64,000 bases of DNA, from NCBI GenBank assembly GCA_001793895.1, contig MGIT01000001.1, positions 106,508 to 170,507 on the forward strand, given 5' to 3'. The translations under genes and the position numbers were made by a program. This document shows, in pieces, positions 26,666 through 48,050 of this stretch. Each line of letters starts with the position of its first letter. The first letter of the stretch is position 1. The notes below the pieces were generated by a model. The model was given only the letters and a program-made list of their open reading frames with translations, searched no databases and was not told where the DNA came from. Source of the stretch: Candidatus Wolfebacteria bacterium RIFOXYB1_FULL_54_12. GTDB lineage: Bacteria; Patescibacteriota; Minisyncoccia; UBA6257; UBA9933.

Positions 26666-27760
26666 TCAACGCATAACCCCACCTCCGATGACAACTCCAT
26701 CGGCATCGTAAAATACGGCAGATTGTCCCACGGCAACAAACCGTTGCGGTTCATCGAATTGCAACCGATAGGCCTCACCATCGGCGACCAATGTCGCCGC
26801 AAACAACGGCTGGCGATAGCGGATGCGCACCATGACCGGAATGGACTTCGGGGGGGCTATGGCGCACATGCCCATGAAATTAAGTTCAACAAGGCCAATA
26901 TCCGCACATGCCTGCTCAAGCAAATGATCATCATGCGAAACCGTGATGACATTGCTTGCGACATCTTTTTTGACCACAAAATACGCCGGTCCGCCCCCGA
27001 CATGCAATCCGTGCCGTTGCCCGATGGTATAAAACCACACACCCTCGTGCTCGCCCACCTTCACTCCGTCGACGGTAACAATGTCGCCCTTCCGTTTCGG
27101 CAGATACTGTTCCAAAAATTCACGCAACGATATCTTCCCCAAAAAACAAATACCTTGGGAATCTTTTTTCTGCGCCGTCGGAAGTCCCGCGGCCGCCGCA
27201 ATCTCCCTGATCTTCGGCTTTTCATAGGCACCGATCGGAAACAAACAATGCCGCAGTTGCTCCTGCGTAAGCGTCCACAAAAAATAACTCTGATCTTTAT
27301 TCCCATCAATCCCTTTCTGTAATGAGTAAGTAGTTTCCTGTTTTTTGTTATCGGTTATAGGTTGTAGGTTATAGGTTGCGCTTCGCGCATAATGCCCCGT
27401 CGCCACATAATCAGCCCCCAACGCAAGCGCCTTTTGCAAAAACACGCCAAACTTGATTTCCTTGTTGCACATCACATCCGGGTTCGGGGTAATGCCGTTG
27501 CGATACCCGTTGACCAAATATTCCACCACGAATTGTTTGTATTCTTCTTCAAGATCGATGACATAAAACGGGATGCCCAAATGTTCGGCAACGCGCCGCG
27601 CATCTTCCGCTTCGCGGTCTTGGCATCCGTCCATGTTATATCCTTTAATGAACGCGCCGATCACATCATAAGTCCCCTGCTCGCGCAACAAAAAAGCGGC
27701 GACACTCGAATCGACGCCGCCCGACATCATGACAAATACTTTTGGCTTTAAACCATTCAT
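26666..27760 (-). CDS. mnmA: tRNA-specific 2-thiouridylase MnmA, with an in-frame tandem-repeat insertion
   Basis: PP-loop SGGVDSS. ATGHYAR. KDQSYFLW. An inserted ATYNLQPITDNKKQ segment is encoded by the (GGTTAT)-type repeat at 27346-27379. Confidence 0.85.
   Translation of the reverse strand: MNGLKPKVFVMMSGGVDSSVAAFLLREQGTYDVIGAFIKGYNMDGCQDREAEDARRVAEHLGIPFYVIDLEEEYKQFVVEYLVNGYRNGITPNPDVMCNKEIKFGVFLQKALALGADYVATGHYARSATYNLQPITDNKKQETTYSLQKGIDGNKDQSYFLWTLTQEQLRHCLFPIGAYEKPKIREIAAAAGLPTAQKKDSQGICFLGKISLREFLEQYLPKRKGDIVTVDGVKVGEHEGVWFYTIGQRHGLHVGGGPAYFVVKKDVASNVITVSHDDHLLEQACADIGLVELNFMGMCAIAPPKSIPVMVRIRYRQPLFAATLVADGEAYRLQFDEPQRFVAVGQSAVFYDADGVVIGGGVMR
27346..27379. repeat. (GGTTAT/GGTTGT)n-type tandem repeat inside the mnmA coding sequence
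   Basis: Sequence ttgttatcggttataggttgtaggttataggttgcg. Confidence 0.8.
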
Positions 27761-31029: not shown

Positions 31030-31117
31030 TTCCGTTATCCGTTATCGGTCATCCGTTTTCGTTTTCGGTTATAGGTTATTAGTTGTAGGTTTTAGGTTAT
31101 TGGTTATCAGTCATTGG
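31030..31117. repeat. Tandem (CCGTTAT)/(GGTTAT)n repeat array abutting the stop codon of 31118..32461
   Basis: Sequence ccgttatccgttatcggtcatccgttttcgttttcggttataggttattagttgtaggttttaggttattggttatcagtcattggttattc. Confidence 0.8.
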
Positions 31118-32461
31118 TTATTCTATCGGCAAATTCTCCGGAGGCTCGCCTTTCTTTGCCTCGATACGGCGCATACTCGGCGCGGTAACCAACGATGACG
31201 GAACATGGTAAAGCGTAGCCAACTCTTCTATGGAAAAGACGGGAGCCTTCTTTATCATGATCCGCTGGCGGTATGCAAAGAACATTGCCCTCTTTTTCAA
31301 AAATTCCTGATGCTTTTTCCACGCCGGAAACAGCCATGCCTTGAAACCTTTCGGCGGGTTTACCGACGTATCCCTGTTTGGCTTGAACGAATTGATATGC
31401 TGGGAACCGAATTGCTTGAATGAGCCGATGATCCCCCCTATATAGGACTTATGAAACGTTTCCTGCCGATCGATAAACACTGCACGCACGCTCACTTCAT
31501 AGCACAGTTTGGATATTTTTCCTTCAATGCCTTCAAGTACTTCCTTTTCAGAAAAGCTCAAAGACGCAATCGTCTTGGGTGGAGCGTCGGATTTTTTCGG
31601 CGGCTCGGGCCATTCCGGAGTGCTTATGAATACAAGAAAAAAATTCTTGATCCACATGACAAGATGATCAAATATGCTCAATTTAGGAGCGACCTTCACC
31701 TCACGGCCTAACATTTTATCGACGATCGCCTGTCCCTTCTTTTTGTAGTCGCTCGTTTTTTCGCCGGTCGGCTTGGATATATATTGCACGAAGATCATTT
31801 CATTCTCGCGGAGCTTCGACATGGTTTCCAAAATGACCGTAAGCGGATCAAGTCGTTGCTCTTCCTCTTTCTCTTCAAAATAGGCGTATGTCTTAATCGG
31901 ATATGCGCTGTCTTTGTCGAGAACCATATCGACGCCCCATACATCATAAACATCGTTGGGCAACATCATCGGCAAGAAGCTGAGATAGTCTTCGACAAGG
32001 GCTATTTCCGCGGCGGGATATTGCGCAAACAATGCGGACTCCACCAAATTGCGGTGCTCGGCAGGTACGCGCACATAAAAATATACACCGCCGCTTCGCC
32101 CGACCATTTCAAACGAAAGGGCGTTTTGAACCTTCCCTTTGATATTTTCATCCCACCATTTGATCTCGCCGGCATAGGTGCCATGTACCGTGGCAAACAC
32201 CTGTTCCATGGATTTCGGACTGCGCAAATTTTCCTTGGGGATGCGCAATTCAAGCACGACCCACTTTTGCGCCTTCTTTGCCGCTTTTTTGTTCGAGTCG
32301 ATGTACAGGTCCCAAAGATAGAACGCCAAAACAACCGGAACGACGGCCCACCATACGTACGAAAAGACCTCGCCAATGCTTTGCGCAATGCCAAGGATGA
32401 TATTCTGCACGACCGGTGTGATCGAAAAATAGTCCAGTAGAAAGTCTGAAATGTTTGCCAT
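31118..32461 (-). CDS. Hypothetical membrane protein (N-terminal TM pair plus a large soluble domain), co-directional and adjacent to the TraD/VirD4-like ATPase
   Basis: 447 aa. TM region VVQNIILGIAQSIGEVFSYVWWAVVPVVLAFYLW. No recognisable motifs. Confidence 0.4.
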   Translation of the reverse strand: MANISDFLLDYFSITPVVQNIILGIAQSIGEVFSYVWWAVVPVVLAFYLWDLYIDSNKKAAKKAQKWVVLELRIPKENLRSPKSMEQVFATVHGTYAGEIKWWDENIKGKVQNALSFEMVGRSGGVYFYVRVPAEHRNLVESALFAQYPAAEIALVEDYLSFLPMMLPNDVYDVWGVDMVLDKDSAYPIKTYAYFEEKEEEQRLDPLTVILETMSKLRENEMIFVQYISKPTGEKTSDYKKKGQAIVDKMLGREVKVAPKLSIFDHLVMWIKNFFLVFISTPEWPEPPKKSDAPPKTIASLSFSEKEVLEGIEGKISKLCYEVSVRAVFIDRQETFHKSYIGGIIGSFKQFGSQHINSFKPNRDTSVNPPKGFKAWLFPAWKKHQEFLKKRAMFFAYRQRIMIKKAPVFSIEELATLYHVPSSLVTAPSMRRIEAKKGEPPENLPIE

Positions 32462-32519: not shown

Positions 32520-32578
32520 TTGCATTCCGTTATCCGTTATCCGTTTTCGGTTATTGGTTATTGGTTATCCGTTATTTA
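32520..32578. repeat. Tandem (CCGTTAT)/(GGTTAT)n repeat array abutting the stop codon of 32576..33619
   Basis: Sequence ccgttatccgttatccgttttcggttattggttattggttatccgttatttacg. Confidence 0.8.
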
Positions 32579-37115: not shown

Positions 37116-37658
37116 TTAGAATGGCCCAAAATTGAAGGTCGCCCGTTCCGGCTCGTCGCTCCCCCACTGCGGAACCAACAAATAGCCCTGCGCGCGGGCA
37201 AGCTCATATAGATCTTTTGTTATGCGCACATCGTGCAAACAATAATCGGCAAGCTCCTCCAGCCTGCCCTCGCGATACATCACCGGAGCCTCAAGGCTAT
37301 GGTGCGTTTTTTGCGTTCCCAAATTTATTTTTGCCAAAAGATCCAAGCTGATCCGTCTTCCTAATTGCATTTCAATGTCATCGAGCAGATCGATGCGCGG
37401 CACGCCGAACAGGTTGAACTTGCAGTGCTTATTCAATACGGGAATGTCGAATCGGGTAATACTGAACCCGATGATGCATTCGGCATCGCGTAACAGTTCA
37501 CTGCATTCGATCATGTGGTGCTCGTCGAACGAAATATATTTGTCTTGCGCGTAGGAAAAAAGACCCACCACGGAAACCTGCAGGTCGTTGAAATTATCCC
37601 GCCCCACCTCGGCGAGCGTATTTTTTGTCTCGATGTCGAAAACGATAAAGTCGCGCAT
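37116..37658 (-). CDS. DEDD-family 3'-5' exonuclease (DnaQ/RNase T-like)
   Basis: FDIETKN (Exo I). HHSLEAPVMY...CLHDVRITKDL (Exo III His/Asp). Start MRDFIVFDIET at 37658. Confidence 0.6.
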   Translation of the reverse strand: MRDFIVFDIETKNTLAEVGRDNFNDLQVSVVGLFSYAQDKYISFDEHHMIECSELLRDAECIIGFSITRFDIPVLNKHCKFNLFGVPRIDLLDDIEMQLGRRISLDLLAKINLGTQKTHHSLEAPVMYREGRLEELADYCLHDVRITKDLYELARAQGYLLVPQWGSDEPERATFNFGPF

Positions 37659-37669
37659 ACATAAAAATA

Positions 37670-37710
37670 ACCTATGACCCATAACCAACAACCCATAACA
37701 AAAGAAATCG
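37670..37710. repeat. (GGTTAT)-type tandem repeat, plus-strand reading ATAACC
   Basis: Sequence aaaataacctatgacccataaccaacaacccataacaaaag. Confidence 0.7.
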
Positions 37711-37739
37711 GGATGCAAGGGTGAAACAGAAAGCAAACA

Positions 37740-37850
37740 TATGTCATCCTGATCCGTCAGCCGACGGATTCAGGATCTCCCCGCAAAAACACGAGATTCC
37801 GGCTCCCCGTATCGTGGTACGGGGCAGGCTCCGGGCCAGAATGACAACAC
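37740..37850. repeat. Palindromic hairpin repeats
   Basis: Sequence gtcatcctgatccgtcagccgacggattcaggatc ... gattccggctccccgtatcgtggtacggggcaggctccgggccagaatgac. Confidence 0.75.
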
Positions 37851-37865
37851 ATAAGAGTCGATACC

Positions 37866-38825
37866 TTACTTAATACCCCTCTTAAGCACTGTTGTCAATT
37901 TTTTCAATTGCGCATCATAGGTGGCCTTGTCGCGCGCTTCCACATTTAACCGAACTAACGATTCGGTATTGGAAAGCCGCACGTTGAACCACCAATCGGG
38001 ATCGGCAAAGTCCATGGCAATGCCATCGATCTTCGATATAGCCTTTGCGTCTTTTTTATATGTCCGTTCTATGTGCGCAAACAATCCGGCGGGCGCAATG
38101 GAAGACGAAACAGGGACATTGATCTCCGGCGACCGATACGTTTCCGGCAAGAGGTCTACGAATTCCGACAGCGCATACGGCAATCGCGCAAGCGCGTTCA
38201 GCACCGCGACGGCCGCCATGATGCCCGAATCGCAATAAAAAAAGTTTTTAAAATAATAGTGCCCCGATCGCTCGCACCCGAATTCGGCGCCATTTTTCCG
38301 CATGGCGTGTTTCATGGCGTAATGCCCTGTCTTGCCCGCAATGCGTTTTGCGCCAAGCAGCGACTCGTCCCGAGTGAAATCGAGGGATTGCCGACGCACA
38401 AGCCATCCGTCTTTTGCATCGGTCACAAATCGATTCGGACGCAAGGACCACAGCAACAGATACGCCACGACATCCGGGTCCACAAAACGACCCTTGTCGT
38501 CGACGAAGAAAACACGGTCTCCATCCGCATCAAAGATGACACCTATATCGGCACCATTGGAAACAACGCTCTTTTGTAACGCGCGCAACGAACCGGCATG
38601 CAACGGATCCGGCGCATGATTCGGGAAGTTCCCATCAGGCTGACCATTCAAAATAGCCCATTCCCTTTTTTCCTTTTTCCTTTTTCCTTTTTCCCTGAGT
38701 GCCTCCATGATCGGCCCTGTAGCCCCGCTGGAACAATCAAAAACAACATCAAGCGTTTTTGCATCGTCGCGCAAAAACCCGTTCAAAAACGAAACATATT
38801 CATCGACAAAGGGTGAGGTATTCAT
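37866..38825 (-). CDS. Phosphoglucomutase/phosphomannomutase family protein lacking the N-terminal catalytic domain I. Domains II-IV only, so possibly a truncated gene or pseudogene
   Basis: Metal-binding loop FDADGDRVFFVDD. Sugar-binding and C-terminal domains present. No TASHNP-type active-site Ser domain. No upstream ORF supplies it. An in-frame (GGAAAAA)n at 38664-38696 encodes KGKRKKEKR. Confidence 0.55.
   Translation of the reverse strand: MNTSPFVDEYVSFLNGFLRDDAKTLDVVFDCSSGATGPIMEALREKGKRKKEKREWAILNGQPDGNFPNHAPDPLHAGSLRALQKSVVSNGADIGVIFDADGDRVFFVDDKGRFVDPDVVAYLLLWSLRPNRFVTDAKDGWLVRRQSLDFTRDESLLGAKRIAGKTGHYAMKHAMRKNGAEFGCERSGHYYFKNFFYCDSGIMAAVAVLNALARLPYALSEFVDLLPETYRSPEINVPVSSSIAPAGLFAHIERTYKKDAKAISKIDGIAMDFADPDWWFNVRLSNTESLVRLNVEARDKATYDAQLKKLTTVLKRGIK
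38664..38696. repeat. (TTTTTCC)n / (GGAAAAA)n microsatellite inside a coding region
   Basis: Sequence cccttttttcctttttcctttttcctttttccc. Confidence 0.85.
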
Positions 38826-38874
38826 GCTTAAATATTGACTAATCCAGGAAAGTAGCCTACGATTACTTATATCA

Positions 38875-39471
38875 CTACGAAAAAGACCCTTGCAAGGTTC
38901 CGTCCTTGCCGGGGGCTTTTTTATTTAGTTCTATTTTATGCCGCACATCATGGCAATACACGATCGGCGCATCCGTTCGCTTCAACAGGATCGAGCACTT
39001 CTCGACCTTGCTCGGAGAAATAACCACTTCTAACTTTTCTTTCGTCTGCAAAAATTTTACCAGCCCGGCGTAATCACCATCGCTCGTGACAAGGACTTGT
39101 TTGTCGCAATTATTCTCAAATGCATCTACTGACGATTGCAATACGAGATCGGCATCGCAATTTCCCTTAGCCTCGCCCGAGCCATTATAAACGACCTCCT
39201 TGAATATCAATGTAAAGCCTGCCTTTTGCAAAGCGGTATAAAGATCTTTTTGCTTGGGAACAAGCCCTATAAAATAATACGCACAAACAACGCCATACTT
39301 ATCCGAAAGCCACCTTCTTAAGCGATACATGTCAACGCTCCAGCCGTCATTGCCCGTTCCGCGATACAAATTATTCCCGTCAATATACGCAAAATTTTTC
39401 TTGTAGCGATTCATGCCATACTCAGTATACCAAAAATAAAACCAAAGCCCCATGTCAAACTCAAAAACCAA
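38875..39471 (-). CDS. NYN (LabA-like, PIN-related) domain protein
   Basis: AYIDGNNLY...CDADL...VLVTSDGDYAGLV are the conserved NYN-domain acidic residues. Alternative start MNRYKK at 39411. Confidence 0.65.
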   Translation of the reverse strand: MVFEFDMGLWFYFWYTEYGMNRYKKNFAYIDGNNLYRGTGNDGWSVDMYRLRRWLSDKYGVVCAYYFIGLVPKQKDLYTALQKAGFTLIFKEVVYNGSGEAKGNCDADLVLQSSVDAFENNCDKQVLVTSDGDYAGLVKFLQTKEKLEVVISPSKVEKCSILLKRTDAPIVYCHDVRHKIELNKKAPGKDGTLQGSFS

Positions 39472-39501
39472 TCGTAAAAAATAGCACCCCCACGCTCATC
39501 T

Positions 39502-39535
39502 GGTGTCCAAAATGACGATCGTCATTTTGGACACC
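39502..39535. promoter_or_regulatory. Perfect 15-bp inverted repeat with a 4-nt spacer (GGTGTCCAAAATGAC gatc GTCATTTTGGACACC). Terminator or operator.
   Basis: Exact palindrome between the stop of 39619..39957 and the start of the NYN gene. Confidence 0.5.
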
Positions 39536-39618
39536 AAATTGAATTGTAGGTCTCGATACTATGCAATAAAAAAAGCCACGGGATGTCCGTGGCTTTTGCG
39601 CAATGGAACGTCGACACC

Positions 39619-39957
39619 TTATTCATGCATGTCGGATAAAAACCCTTCTGAGTAATTAGCAGGCTTAGGCATCATTTTGGTCGCCTCCGCCATAAGCTCC
39701 TCGATCAACTGCCCAAGAAACAAATAGCACGCGTTCATATCGGTCCCGTCGGAAGGCATGGCGGTGCGAATCTCTGACAAATGACGCGCCGCGACGACAA
39801 GATATTCCGCCGACTGCCATTCCGACATGCGCAGCAGATTCCCAAGCTCGAAAAGTTCTTTTTCATGCGCCTGCGATACACGCACCCGCTGTGCCTTCGC
39901 TTTCATCAGCTTGATAACCCCGAGATACAACGGCAACTTCCCTTCGATTGTATGCAT
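39619..39957 (-). CDS. Hypothetical protein
   Basis: 112 aa. No motifs. Confidence 0.35.
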   Translation of the reverse strand: MHTIEGKLPLYLGVIKLMKAKAQRVRVSQAHEKELFELGNLLRMSEWQSAEYLVVAARHLSEIRTAMPSDGTDMNACYLFLGQLIEELMAEATKMMPKPANYSEGFLSDMHE

Positions 39958-40211
39958 ACCGGCTCCTCCTTTCTGCGCTAATGATGAATAATGGAATAGT
40001 ACTAAGCCCAGTAAAGCGCATAGTGGAAGAACTTGTCAAATCCCGTAACCTACAAAAAATCGGAACATCTGTCCCGATTTTTAACATTATACAACCCTCC
40101 TATATCTTATGAAGCGCCAAACGGGGACATGGTCCGGAAACCCAAACGGAAGCGCAGCGCGAAGCGCGTGAGCGGGTTGACGGGCATGTCCTCGTTTGGG
40201 CGCCCCCACAC

Positions 40212-41219
40212 TTAACGCTTATTCAACAGCGTCCGCTTGTACACATCCAAATGGGTCAATATAAGCCCAGCGCCTTTTGCCACACAGAACAGCGGCTCTT
40301 CGGCGACATAGGCATTCACGCCCAACATGCGCTTCAGGAAGTCGGCCAAATACGGGATTTGCGCTCCGCCACCGGAAATGATAATACCTTTTTCCATGAC
40401 ATCAGCGACCAGTTCGGGCGGCGTTTCATTGAACACGTTCTGTACTTCACTTGCAATGTCGAGCAGGTACGGATGGATCGCTTCTGCGACCTCGTTCGAT
40501 GTGACCATGATATCTTTCGGCAATCCGGTAATAAGGTCGCGCCCGCGCACTTCCATAGTGCGCTTGTCTTTGGTCGTCAATGCGGAACCGATCTGGATCT
40601 TGATCGCTTCGGATGTTTGCTGTCCTATGGAAAGCGAATATTTTTTCTTGATGTAGTCGACGATGGCCATATCGAACTTGTTTCCCGCCACGCGCAAGCT
40701 CGCCCATGACACGATGCCGCCCAGCGAAACAACCGCAGTTTCGGTAGTACCGCCGCCGATATTGATGATCATGTTGCCCGCATGGGAATTGATCGGAATG
40801 CCCGCGCCCAATGCGGCGAGCATCGGTTCACGCACGATATAGGCTTCGCGTGCGCCCGCTTCCTTTGCGGCATTGATCACCGCGCGGCGTTCCGTTTGCG
40901 TAATGCCGGCCGGGACGGAAATGACGATGTCCGGCTTAAACACGTTAAATGACCCGATGGCCTTGTTGATGAAATATTTCAACATCGCCTTGGTAATATA
41001 GTAGTCGGCGATGACACCATCACGTAACGGCTGATAGGCCACAATGTCGCTCGGCGTTCTGCCGATCATTTCCTTTGCCTCCCTGCCGACGGCAAGCACC
41101 GTATTGTCGGGCGCGCTCAACGCAACGATGGTCGGTTCGTTAATGACAAATCCCTTCCCTTCCACAAATACGATGGTATTTGCGGTTCCCAAATCGATTC
41201 CAATTTTTCGTGTAAACAT
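40212..41219 (-). CDS. mreB: Rod shape-determining protein MreB
   Basis: IGIDLGTANT. Actin-fold phosphate and adenosine motifs. 335 aa. Confidence 0.9.
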   Translation of the reverse strand: MFTRKIGIDLGTANTIVFVEGKGFVINEPTIVALSAPDNTVLAVGREAKEMIGRTPSDIVAYQPLRDGVIADYYITKAMLKYFINKAIGSFNVFKPDIVISVPAGITQTERRAVINAAKEAGAREAYIVREPMLAALGAGIPINSHAGNMIINIGGGTTETAVVSLGGIVSWASLRVAGNKFDMAIVDYIKKKYSLSIGQQTSEAIKIQIGSALTTKDKRTMEVRGRDLITGLPKDIMVTSNEVAEAIHPYLLDIASEVQNVFNETPPELVADVMEKGIIISGGGAQIPYLADFLKRMLGVNAYVAEEPLFCVAKGAGLILTHLDVYKRTLLNKR

Positions 41220-48014: not shown

Positions 48015-48050
48015 CTGTTATTAGTTATAGGTTGCTGGTTGTTAGCCTGA
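48015..48050. repeat. (GGTTAT)-type tandem repeat 3' of rplK
   Basis: Sequence cctgttattagttataggttgctggttgttagcc. Confidence 0.65.

What the first reader, a model, noticed from the sequence alone, without database searches (positions are those of the whole stretch)
37866..39471. Phosphohexomutase missing its catalytic N-terminal domain, carrying an in-frame (GGAAAAA)n tract, with an NYN-domain gene directly upstream
The 319-aa ORF starts in domain II of the alpha-D-phosphohexomutase fold (metal loop DADGDR present). It lacks domain I with the phosphoserine. No ORF upstream supplies the missing domain. Instead the upstream gene is an NYN/LabA-like (PIN-related nuclease) protein.

The ORF also contains a perfect (TTTTTCC)4-5 microsatellite (38664-38696) encoding KGKRKKEKR. 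The gene is either a decaying pseudogene or a split or neo-functionalised fragment. The microsatellite is a potential slippage site, giving phase-variable expression.
Basis: partly seen in the sequence, partly recalled or inferred. Interest (0 to 1): 0.5.

Follow-up and report, generated by a model that had tools for sequence, protein, structure and literature searches.

The report
Large half of a split sugar-phosphate mutase
The "headless" phosphohexomutase is an intact, conserved gene for the large half of a two-piece enzyme that is common in these tiny groundwater bacteria; the nuclease gene next to it is a recent insertion, and the short repeat shows no sign of acting as a switch.

Summary
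ORF 37866-38825 (-) encodes only domains II-IV of a PMM/PGM-type phosphohexomutase. It contains a perfect (GGAAAAA)4 tract, and an NYN gene lies directly upstream.

It is not a pseudogene. The window comes from a Candidatus Wolfebacteria genome. The ~300-aa architecture recurs in 110 of the 120 best relatives, down to about 40% identity. dN/dS is 0.13-0.19. The Mg, sugar and phosphate loops are invariant in 29 of 29 clade members, and the AlphaFold model (pLDDT 91) matches domains 2-4 of solved PMM/PGMs.

Stand-alone ~130-aa domain-I proteins with an intact catalytic serine loop are abundant in Patescibacteria. In five sister loci inspected they sit directly upstream of the II-IV gene. In the window's own clade (MurA-MreB-...-PGM-RNaseH-SecDF synteny) no domain-I gene is adjacent, and there is none in the 64 kb. 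I could not locate the partner, so "encoded elsewhere" is an inference, not a result.

The NYN gene is a species-specific insertion between the old PGM promoter and the PGM start codon. The repeat encodes a Lys-rich surface loop. It has four units in every available sequence and a same-length degenerate copy in a 77%-identical ortholog, so phase variation is unsupported.

The parts
37866..38825 (-). Gene for domains II-IV (319 aa) of a PMM/PGM-type alpha-D-phosphohexomutase; inferred to be the large subunit of a two-piece enzyme
   Evidence: Pfam II+III+IV only. 110 of the 120 best homologs are 227-358 aa and lack PF02878. AlphaFold pLDDT 91.4, pTM 0.90. Foldseek matches PDB 5bmn, 1k35 and 1wqa, TM 0.75-0.83 normalised to the query. 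dN/dS 0.13-0.19.
38667..38694 (-). Perfect (GGAAAAA)4 tract, in frame, encoding KGKRKKEKR in a loop after the first helix of domain II
   Evidence: TRF 100% match, 4.0 copies. Codon view and the same-length degenerate copy in L004. 1, 4 or 7 units keep the frame; 2, 3, 5 or 6 units truncate the product at 56-65 aa. The model shows helix 36-47 followed by coil 48-56, with block pLDDT 82-85.
38511..38528 (-). Codons for the Mg-binding loop DADGDR (residues 99-104)
   Evidence: Invariant in 29/29 clade members and 91/91 other relatives at the three Asp and the Arg. The role of the loop is taken from PMC3369874.
38875..39414 (-). NYN-domain gene (179 aa from the ATG at 39414); a species-specific inserted gene
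   Evidence: Pfam NYN 50.2 bits. The same gene and arrangement occur only in the same species (L092, 99.9% DNA identity). It is absent at this site in L001, L004, L005, L008 and L011. GC3 is 0.51 against 0.56-0.65 for neighbouring genes. Relatives at 55-68% identity lie in unrelated contexts.
39423..39455 (-). Promoter-like block (ACATGGGGCTTTGG...TTTTTGGTATACT) that sits directly upstream of the PGM start in relatives and now sits upstream of NYN
   Evidence: 91% identical to L001 9960-9992, which lies 10 nt upstream of the L001 PGM start codon; also present in L004. The promoter function is inferred.
39409..39416 (-). 8-nt direct repeat GCATGAAT, copy 1, containing the NYN start codon
   Evidence: The second copy is at 38820-38827.
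38820..38827 (-). 8-nt direct repeat GCATGAAT, copy 2, containing the PGM start codon; marks the other edge of the ~589-nt insertion
   Evidence: No terminator-like site on the - strand between the NYN stop and the PGM start.
39571..39597 (-). Intrinsic-terminator-like hairpin ending the upstream 112-aa gene; conserved position in relatives
   Evidence: 11-bp stem plus a T run. Equivalent hairpins are visible in L001 and L004.
39619..39957 (-). 112-aa hypothetical gene, the ancestral upstream neighbour of the PGM gene; not a domain I
   Evidence: 79%, 63% and 40% identical homologs in L001, L004 and L005. No Pfam or NCBIfam hit. hhalign against the domain-I profile gives probability 0.2%. No homolog upstream of the PGM gene in L007 or L008.
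37116..37658 (-). RNase_H_2-like gene (180 aa from the ATG at 37658), the conserved downstream neighbour
   Evidence: Pfam RNase_H_2. 98% identical to L001. It follows the PGM gene by 7-8 nt in L001, L004 and L005, but by 207 nt here.
37659..37865 (.). 207-nt spacer that is only 7-8 nt long in relatives; contains a heptamer array (37667-37699) and 15-nt inverted arms (37742-37756 / 37832-37846)

Best explanation
The ORF encodes the large (domains II-IV) subunit of a two-piece PMM/PGM-type phosphohexomutase, an architecture that is widespread in Patescibacteria (Paceibacteria/Parcubacteria). In this architecture domain I, which carries the catalytic phosphoserine loop TASHNP, is made as a separate ~130-aa protein. 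The active site is rebuilt when the two chains associate: the serine comes from the small chain, and the Mg loop (DADGDR), sugar loop (ERSGH) and phosphate loop (RLSNTE) come from this one.

What is shown:
- the short gene is intact, conserved, under purifying selection and correctly folded in silico;
- separate domain-I genes exist, and in sister Wolfebacteria and other Patescibacteria they lie immediately upstream of the II-IV gene, usually next to ftsK.

What is inferred:
- the two chains assemble into an active mutase;
- in the window's own clade, where the II-IV gene sits between mreB and secD and has no adjacent domain I, the small subunit is encoded elsewhere in the genome.

The NYN gene is an unrelated, recently acquired gene. 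It landed between the PGM promoter and the PGM start codon and is probably co-transcribed with PGM. The (GGAAAAA)4 tract is a slippage-born, in-frame insertion in a length-variable, Lys-rich surface loop. It is not a demonstrated switch.
For: Architecture and conservation:
- Pfam finds domains II-IV only.
- 110 of the 120 best homologs are 227-358 aa and lack PF02878.
- The MurA-MreB-...-PGM(II-IV)-RNaseH_2-...-SecD-SecF synteny holds in L001, L004, L005, L008 and L011, at 80% down to 45% PGM identity.

Selection:
- dN/dS is 0.19 (vs L001) and 0.13 (vs L004) at dS 0.56-1.09.
- The DxDxDR, ExSGH and RxSNTE loops are invariant in 29/29 clade members.
- 58 of the 67 sites that are at least 90% conserved in relatives outside this clade (those inspected carry an adjacent or fused domain I) keep the same residue at 90% or more in this clade.

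Fold:
- pLDDT 91.4.
- Foldseek E = 1e-27 to 1e-23 against PGM and PMM/PGM structures over about 320 columns.

Separate domain I:
- Two searches gave 2724 and 965 hits, and the best 120 of each were all 126-167 aa with PF02878 only.
- All 211 of these retrieved proteins keep the catalytic-loop motif.
- Gene calls show adjacency in L010 (19-nt overlap), L093/L094, L095/L096 and L119/L120 (4-nt overlap).
- Locus tags are adjacent for KGO95_03830/35 and HZB99_03590/95.

NYN insertion.

Repeat.
Against: No domain-I gene was found for this clade:
- There is none in the 64-kb window or in about 100 kb of clade loci.
- None of the 240 listed domain-I hits lies on the long contigs that carry clade members (893, 789, 608 and 377 kb).
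- By calibration, the clade's domain I should be about 55-62% identical to the query. That is at the edge of what those lists show, so the absence is weak evidence only.

The gene evolves 4-10 times faster, by dN/dS, than its housekeeping neighbours, and it has clade-specific indels. This also fits relaxed or changed function.

Assembly and activity of any two-piece phosphohexomutase are untested, and I found no paper describing one.
Confidence: 0.62

Rival explanations
1. Headless, neo-functionalised protein. The window's clade lost domain I when the II-IV gene moved to the mreB-secD locus. The protein now works without a phosphoserine partner, for example as a Mg/sugar-phosphate-binding or regulatory protein.
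For: No domain I in the window or in clade loci, and none on the clade's near-genome-sized contigs among the listed hits. dN/dS is raised relative to neighbours (0.13-0.19 against 0.01-0.05), with several indels, including a 9-aa insert modelled at pLDDT below 50 and a large insert in P0009. GC3 is lower than in neighbouring genes.
Against: Every residue that matters only for phosphoryl transfer chemistry (three Asp and an Arg of the Mg loop, ExSGH, RxSNTE) is invariant in 29/29 members across saturated dS. The conservation profile is 87% shared with relatives outside the clade.
Confidence: 0.27
2. Decaying pseudogene: a 5'-truncated remnant of a full-length mutase gene.
For: Domain I is missing, the gene evolves faster than its neighbours, and it contains a microsatellite.
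Against: The ORF is intact in every relative from 99% to 40% identity. dN/dS is 0.13-0.19, far from 1. Catalytic loops are invariant. The fold is predicted with high confidence. A conserved promoter block and conserved synteny are retained.
Confidence: 0.03
3. Phase-variable contingency gene. Slippage of the 7-nt unit switches the protein ON (1, 4 or 7 units) and OFF (2, 3, 5 or 6 units).
For: The unit length is not a multiple of 3 and the tract is perfect. Gain or loss of one unit truncates the protein at 56-65 aa. The genome carries several other heptamer arrays.
Against: There are only four units. All five protein variants of the species (window = P0338, P0001, P0339, P0340; about 14 contigs) and the L092 DNA carry exactly four. 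The 77%-identical ortholog in L004 keeps the same insert length with the repeat decayed by substitutions, which means long-term in-frame stability. Relatives have other Lys-rich inserts of various lengths at this loop.
Confidence: 0.05
4. NYN nuclease and the mutase fragment form a functional two-gene module.
For: They are 49 nt apart on the same strand with no terminator between them, so they are probably co-transcribed.
Against: The NYN gene is absent at this site in all five other clade loci inspected. Its closest relatives (55-68% identity, 22 loci) have none of the window's neighbouring genes (MurA, MreB, hyp112, PGM, RNaseH_2, hyp346, SecD) in their flanks. Its GC and GC3 are lower than those of its neighbours. 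The NYN gene in L008 is unrelated and sits elsewhere.
Confidence: 0.03

Closest known systems
Single-chain PMM/PGM and PGM of the alpha-D-phosphohexomutase superfamily (P. aeruginosa AlgC, PDB 1K35; Xanthomonas citri PGM, 5BMN; Pyrococcus horikoshii, 1WQA)
   Same: Domains 2-4 match in sequence (E = 4e-36 to 6e-29) and in fold (TM 0.75-0.83 normalised to the query). The Mg, sugar and phosphate loops are present. The best NCBIfam match is PMM/PGM (NF007088), aligned to profile positions 157-452.
   Different: There is no domain 1 and no phosphoserine loop in this chain. NCBIfam scores are far below the equivalog cut-offs (194 against 618 bits). The polypeptide starts at the domain 1/2 boundary.
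Two-ORF PMM/PGM of other Wolfebacteria and Patescibacteria (e.g. HZC33_00895 + HZC33_00890; UU85_C0004G0025 and its neighbour; COS61_01475 and its neighbour; AAB407_01680 and its neighbour)
   Same: The II-IV ORF has the same length, start point and loops, at 39-52% identity. An RNase_H_2-like gene is nearby in L093 and L119, as it is here.
   Different: In those genomes a 133-138-aa domain-I ORF lies directly upstream (a 19-nt overlap up to a 15-nt called gap), usually divergent from ftsK. Here the gene sits between mreB and secD, and the upstream genes are a 112-aa hypothetical and an inserted NYN gene.
Split genes of genome-reduced symbionts such as Nanoarchaeum equitans (mentioned in PMC3655853)
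   Same: A protein is divided at a domain boundary and its halves may be encoded at separate loci in a very small genome.
   Different: Different domain of life and a different gene. For this clade, trans-encoding of the halves is inferred, not shown.
Simple-sequence-repeat contingency loci of Haemophilus, Neisseria and Campylobacter (from my own knowledge)
   Same: An intragenic repeat whose unit length is not a multiple of three.
   Different: Only four units, no length polymorphism in the available sequences, and the same insert length kept in a diverged ortholog.

Membership tests
alpha-D-phosphohexomutase (PMM/PGM type) | Four domains in one chain (P. aeruginosa residues 1-154, 154-256, 257-368, 369-463; PMC3369874) | tested here: not met
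   Only domains II-IV are present. Query residues 19-316 align with residues 164-450 of 1K35.
alpha-D-phosphohexomutase (PMM/PGM type) | Catalytic phosphoserine loop (TASHNP; Ser108 in P. aeruginosa) | tested here: not met
   Absent from the ORF and from all six frames of the 64-kb window.
alpha-D-phosphohexomutase (PMM/PGM type) | Mg2+-binding loop DxDxDR in domain 2 (P. aeruginosa residues 242-246) | tested here: met
   DADGDR at residues 99-104. The Asp and Arg positions are invariant in 120/120 aligned relatives.
alpha-D-phosphohexomutase (PMM/PGM type) | Sugar-binding loop (G)ExSGH in domain 3 and phosphate-binding loop RxSxTE in domain 4 | tested here: met
   CERSGH at 184-189 and RLSNTES at 283-289. 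E, S, G, H and R, S, N, T, E are invariant in 29/29 clade members. The loop roles are from my own knowledge of the family.
alpha-D-phosphohexomutase (PMM/PGM type) | Fold of domains 2-4 | tested here: met
   Model pLDDT 91.4. Foldseek gives probability 1.00 and TM 0.75-0.83 (query-normalised) against 5bmn, 1k35 and 1wqa.
alpha-D-phosphohexomutase (PMM/PGM type) | Mutase activity with a bisphosphate intermediate | not testable with these tools
   Needs enzymology.
Two-ORF (split) Patescibacterial PMM/PGM | ~300-aa II-IV ORF that starts at the domain 1/2 boundary | tested here: met
Two-ORF (split) Patescibacterial PMM/PGM | ~130-aa domain-I ORF immediately upstream | tested here: not met
   The upstream genes are NYN and a 112-aa protein with no similarity to domain I. 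The same lack is seen in the clade loci L001, L004, L005, L007, L008 and L011.
Two-ORF (split) Patescibacterial PMM/PGM | Domain-I ORF somewhere in the same genome | tested here: inconclusive
   Only 64 kb of this genome is readable. The listed domain-I hits include none from clade contigs.
SSR-driven phase-variable gene | Intragenic repeat with a unit length that is not a multiple of 3 | tested here: met
   7-nt unit, 4 copies.
SSR-driven phase-variable gene | Repeat-number polymorphism within the population | tested here: not met
   Four units in the window, L092, P0001, P0338, P0339 and P0340. Reads were not available.
Pseudogene | Disrupted frame, or neutral evolution (dN/dS near 1) | tested here: not met
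   Intact ORF in all relatives. dN/dS 0.13-0.19.
NYN (PIN-like) nuclease, Pfam PF01936 | Domain match above the curated threshold | tested here: met
   50.2 bits against 24.2. The acidic motifs IDGNN, CDAD and TSDGD are visible in the translation (by inspection only).
NYN-PGM functional pair | Adjacency conserved across lineages | tested here: not met

The most novel reading that the evidence does not exclude
In this Wolfebacteria clade no domain-I gene exists anywhere in the genome. The II-IV protein has been kept for a long time with a complete Mg/sugar/phosphate site but no phosphoserine. It would then either borrow a phosphoryl donor from an unrelated partner or have a non-mutase role, making it a naturally headless phosphohexomutase.
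Probability: 0.25. Interest if true: 0.55.

Novelty: new variant of a known kind. Interest (0 to 1): 0.3.

Why it matters
The enzyme family is textbook, but it is described as a single four-domain chain in which all four domains contact the substrate (PMC3369874). Here a natural split at the domain 1/2 boundary turns out to be the dominant form in a large bacterial radiation, with thousands of stand-alone domain-I proteins. In one clade the two halves are no longer neighbours.

Three consequences follow:
- Annotation: these genes are currently named "hypothetical" or mislabelled "domain I". Metabolic reconstructions of Patescibacteria may score PGM/PMM/GlmM-type steps as missing or broken.
- Protein science: the split offers a natural system for studying fragment complementation.
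- Clade-specific biology: if the clade truly lacks domain I, it points to a new function for the fold.

For the scan itself, the finding is mostly explained and is not a decaying gene.

Tried and rejected
1. Domain I elsewhere in the window. tblastn with three full-length relatives and a domain-I HMM over all six frames of the window and clade loci found nothing. The weak tblastn hits near 43-44 kb fall in non-PGM ORFs.

2. The conserved 112-aa upstream protein as a cryptic domain I. It has no Pfam or NCBIfam hit. hhalign against the domain-I profile gives probability 0.2%. No homolog lies upstream of the PGM gene in L007 or L008. Rejected.

3. Locating the clade's domain I:
- A second and a third protein search listed only the best 120 of 2724 and 965 hits, none on clade contigs.
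- I picked GC-rich-composition candidates and looked up their cluster names. They came from Harrisonbacteria, Liptonbacteria or unnamed sources, not from this clade.
- The 50%-representative search cannot resolve organisms.
- The window does not contain the ftsK-recA locus that holds the pair in sister genomes.
- Result: inconclusive.

4. NYN as a partner or a mobile cassette. Relatives sit in varied contexts. No integrase or transposase was seen beside it in this window. The 8-nt direct repeat is suggestive of an insertion mechanism, but I cannot name one.

5. Rfam found only tRNAs in the window, and nothing in 39950-40260 at E <= 1.

6. Two full-text literature searches found no description of a split phosphohexomutase in Patescibacteria. 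This is absence from that library only.
Full report
**What is in the sequence.** ORF 37866-38825 on the minus strand encodes 319 aa. Pfam matches PGM_PMM_II (residues 8-112), PGM_PMM_III (158-228) and PGM_PMM_IV (234-304). There is no PGM_PMM_I match. Against solved structures, residues 19-316 align with residues 164-450 of P. aeruginosa PMM/PGM. That enzyme's domain 2 begins at residue 154 and its catalytic Ser108 lies in domain 1 (PMC3369874). The ORF therefore begins at the domain 1/2 boundary. Tandem Repeats Finder reports a perfect TTTTTCC x4 tract at 38667-38694. On the sense strand this is (GGAAAAA)4, in frame, coding KGKRKKEKR. The ORF 49 nt upstream is an NYN-domain protein.

**Where it comes from.** The protein is identical to P0338, which is named in Candidatus Wolfebacteria bacterium RIFOXYB2_FULL_49_7 and sister bins. 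Contig MGIU01000011.1 of GCA_001793905.1 (L092) is 99.9% identical to the window over 12.4 kb and carries the same NYN-PGM arrangement.

**The short architecture is a conserved form.**
- Of the 120 best homologs (796 in total), 110 are 227-358 aa with only domains II-IV. Ten are at least 440 aa and include domain I.
- Five other loci of the window's clade share the order MurA, MreB, one to three small genes (none called in L011), PGM(II-IV), RNase_H_2-like, a hypothetical gene (absent in L011), SecD, SecF. They are L001 (80% PGM identity), L004 (77%), L005 (59%), L008 (60%) and L011 (45%).
- dN/dS for the PGM gene is 0.19 against L001 and 0.13 against L004, at dS 0.56-1.09. This is clear purifying selection, though weaker than for MurA, MreB, RNaseH_2 and SecD (0.01-0.05).
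- The Mg loop (D-x-D-x-D-R), the sugar loop (E-x-S-G-H) and the phosphate loop (R-x-S-N-T-E) are invariant in all 29 clade members in the list.
- Of the 67 positions that are at least 90% conserved in relatives outside the clade, 58 keep the same residue at 90% or more inside it.
- An AlphaFold2 model built on 57 sequences has mean pLDDT 91.4 and pTM 0.90. It matches X. citri PGM, P. aeruginosa PMM/PGM and archaeal PMM/PGMs over about 320 columns, with TM 0.75-0.83 normalised to the query.
- A pseudogene is therefore excluded.

**Domain I exists as a separate gene in this radiation.**
- A search with domain I of the closest full-length relative gave 2724 hits. The best 120 were all 126-167 aa with PF02878 only.
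- A second search with a Wolfebacteria domain I gave 965 hits with the same picture.
- All 211 retrieved stand-alone proteins keep the catalytic-loop motif.
- Gene calls show the small ORF directly upstream of a II-IV ORF in L010 (19-nt overlap), L093/L094, L095/L096 and L119/L120 (4-nt overlap). In L093-L096 and L119/L120 the pair is divergent from ftsK.
- Adjacent locus tags (KGO95_03830/35, HZB99_03590/95) add two more cases.
- Among the best 150 representatives at 50% identity, 39 are 120-160 aa.
- The split at the domain 1/2 boundary is therefore a common, real, two-ORF architecture in Patescibacteria. Fused versions with long linkers also occur.

**The open point.** In the window's clade no domain-I gene is adjacent. 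None is found in the 64-kb window or in the clade loci, either by tblastn or by a profile HMM whose positive control scored E = 9e-65. The conserved 112-aa upstream protein is not a hidden domain I (hhalign probability 0.2%).

I could not read the rest of any clade genome:
- The protein searches list only 120 hits each.
- Composition-guided look-ups found nothing from the clade.
- None of the listed domain-I proteins lies on the 893, 789, 608 or 377-kb contigs that carry clade members.
- Calibration suggests the clade's domain I would be only about 55-62% identical to my query, which is at the edge of the lists.

The unchanged active-site and conservation profile argues that a serine-bearing partner still exists. 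I put about 0.6 on a trans-encoded split enzyme and about 0.25 on true loss with a changed function.

**The NYN gene is an insertion.**
- In L001 and L004 the 112-aa gene is followed by a terminator hairpin, then a conserved block ending in TATACT, and about 10 nt later the PGM start codon.
- In the window the same block (39423-39455) is followed by the NYN start at 39414, the NYN gene, 49 nt of spacer, and then the PGM start.
- The inserted ~589 nt are bounded by an 8-nt direct repeat, GCATGAAT, which contains both start codons.
- No terminator-like site separates NYN from PGM on the coding strand, so co-transcription from the old PGM promoter is likely. This is an inference.
- The NYN gene has GC3 0.51 against 0.56-0.65 for its neighbours.
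- Its nearest relatives (55-68% identity, 22 loci with GC 27-48%) have none of the window's neighbouring genes in their flanks.
- The NYN gene in L008 is unrelated and lies elsewhere.

**The repeat.**
- The tract adds nine residues relative to L001 (…ERLFSDSIILNG…). It lies after helix 36-47, in a coil with block pLDDT 82-85.
- L004 has an insert of the same length (KEKETRKKEKGG) whose DNA is a decayed version of the heptamer array.
- L008 and L011 have other Lys-rich inserts at the same loop.
- One, four or seven units keep the frame. Other numbers truncate the protein at 56-65 aa.
- All available sequences of the species carry four units.
- Slippage probably created the insert. Nothing indicates that it now acts as a switch, and only read-level data could show that.

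**Literature.** Two full-text searches found no description of a split phosphohexomutase in Patescibacteria. Public annotations call these proteins hypothetical, phosphomannomutase, or even "domain I".

**Verdict.** This is a conserved large subunit of a split PMM/PGM-type mutase, not a decaying gene. The NYN gene is a recent hitch-hiker on its promoter, and the microsatellite encodes a tolerated surface loop. Interest is modest. The one unresolved question is whether this clade still has a domain I at all.

Noticed in passing
window 40110-40208 (+ strand); also L093 5399-5504: A ~100-nt structured element lies directly after the mreB stop codon. It is absent at this site in L001 and L004. A second copy in a sister Wolfebacteria genome sits exactly between the domain-I and II-IV ORFs. 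The core CYGAAACCYAAACGGAAGCGCAG...CGTGAGCGGGTTGA is conserved. The 16-18-bp outer stem and the apical hairpin differ completely in sequence between the two copies but pair in both (MFE z-scores -4.7 and -8.7). There is no Rfam match at E <= 1, no further full-length copy in 368 kb of local loci (a 14-nt core match lies at the cut end of L010, 10886-10899), and no match in viral contigs.
   Followed up: partly
window 7990-8022, 27347-27377, 31031-31122, 32526-32575, 37667-37699, 48017-48028: Tandem arrays of the heptamer GGTTATN give 24 matches to GTTATNGGTTAT (up to 1 mismatch) against 0.79 expected. Most are intergenic. One lies inside the mnmA coding sequence and encodes ATYNLQPITDN in a variable loop. 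A strict version of the motif finds none in the relatives' loci L001, L004, L005 and L008. Eight of the 28 TRF rows in the window have period 7, so heptamer arrays are a habit of this genome.
   Followed up: partly
window 37659-37865: The spacer between the PGM stop and the RNase_H_2-like start is 207 nt here but only 7-8 nt in L001, L004 and L005. It holds a heptamer array and 15-nt inverted arms (37742-37756 / 37832-37846). Its predicted fold is not better than shuffled sequence (z = -1.0).
   Followed up: partly
window 39498-39539: A 42-nt near-perfect palindrome (core GGTGTCCAAAATGACGATCGTCATTTTGGACACC) lies in about 110 nt of extra sequence between the terminator of the 112-aa gene and the promoter block. 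It has no counterpart in L001 or L004.
   Followed up: no
window 38820-38827, 39409-39416, 39621-39628: The octamer GCATGAAT (minus strand) occurs three times within about 800 nt, out of five copies on that strand in 64 kb. The three sites are the PGM start, the NYN start and the stop region of the 112-aa gene.
   Followed up: no
P0360 (352 aa), P0345, P0358, P0489: Some domain-I-only proteins carry extra N-terminal parts. In P0360 a ~190-aa N-terminal region (unidentified; it begins with a DxDGV-type motif) is fused upstream of domain I. These may be other ways in which the free catalytic module is deployed.
   Followed up: no
L001/L003 1-581 (gyrB); L095/L096 1523-4957 (ftsK): GyrB in one clade relative carries an intein. 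FtsK in a sister Wolfebacteria carries an intein with a LAGLIDADG domain, according to the precomputed Pfam calls.
   Followed up: no
P0009 (344 aa, 62% identical): This clade member has an insertion of about 45 aa immediately after the sugar-binding loop (GHYYFK...). It could be an assembly artefact or another sign of loosened constraint in this clade.
   Followed up: no
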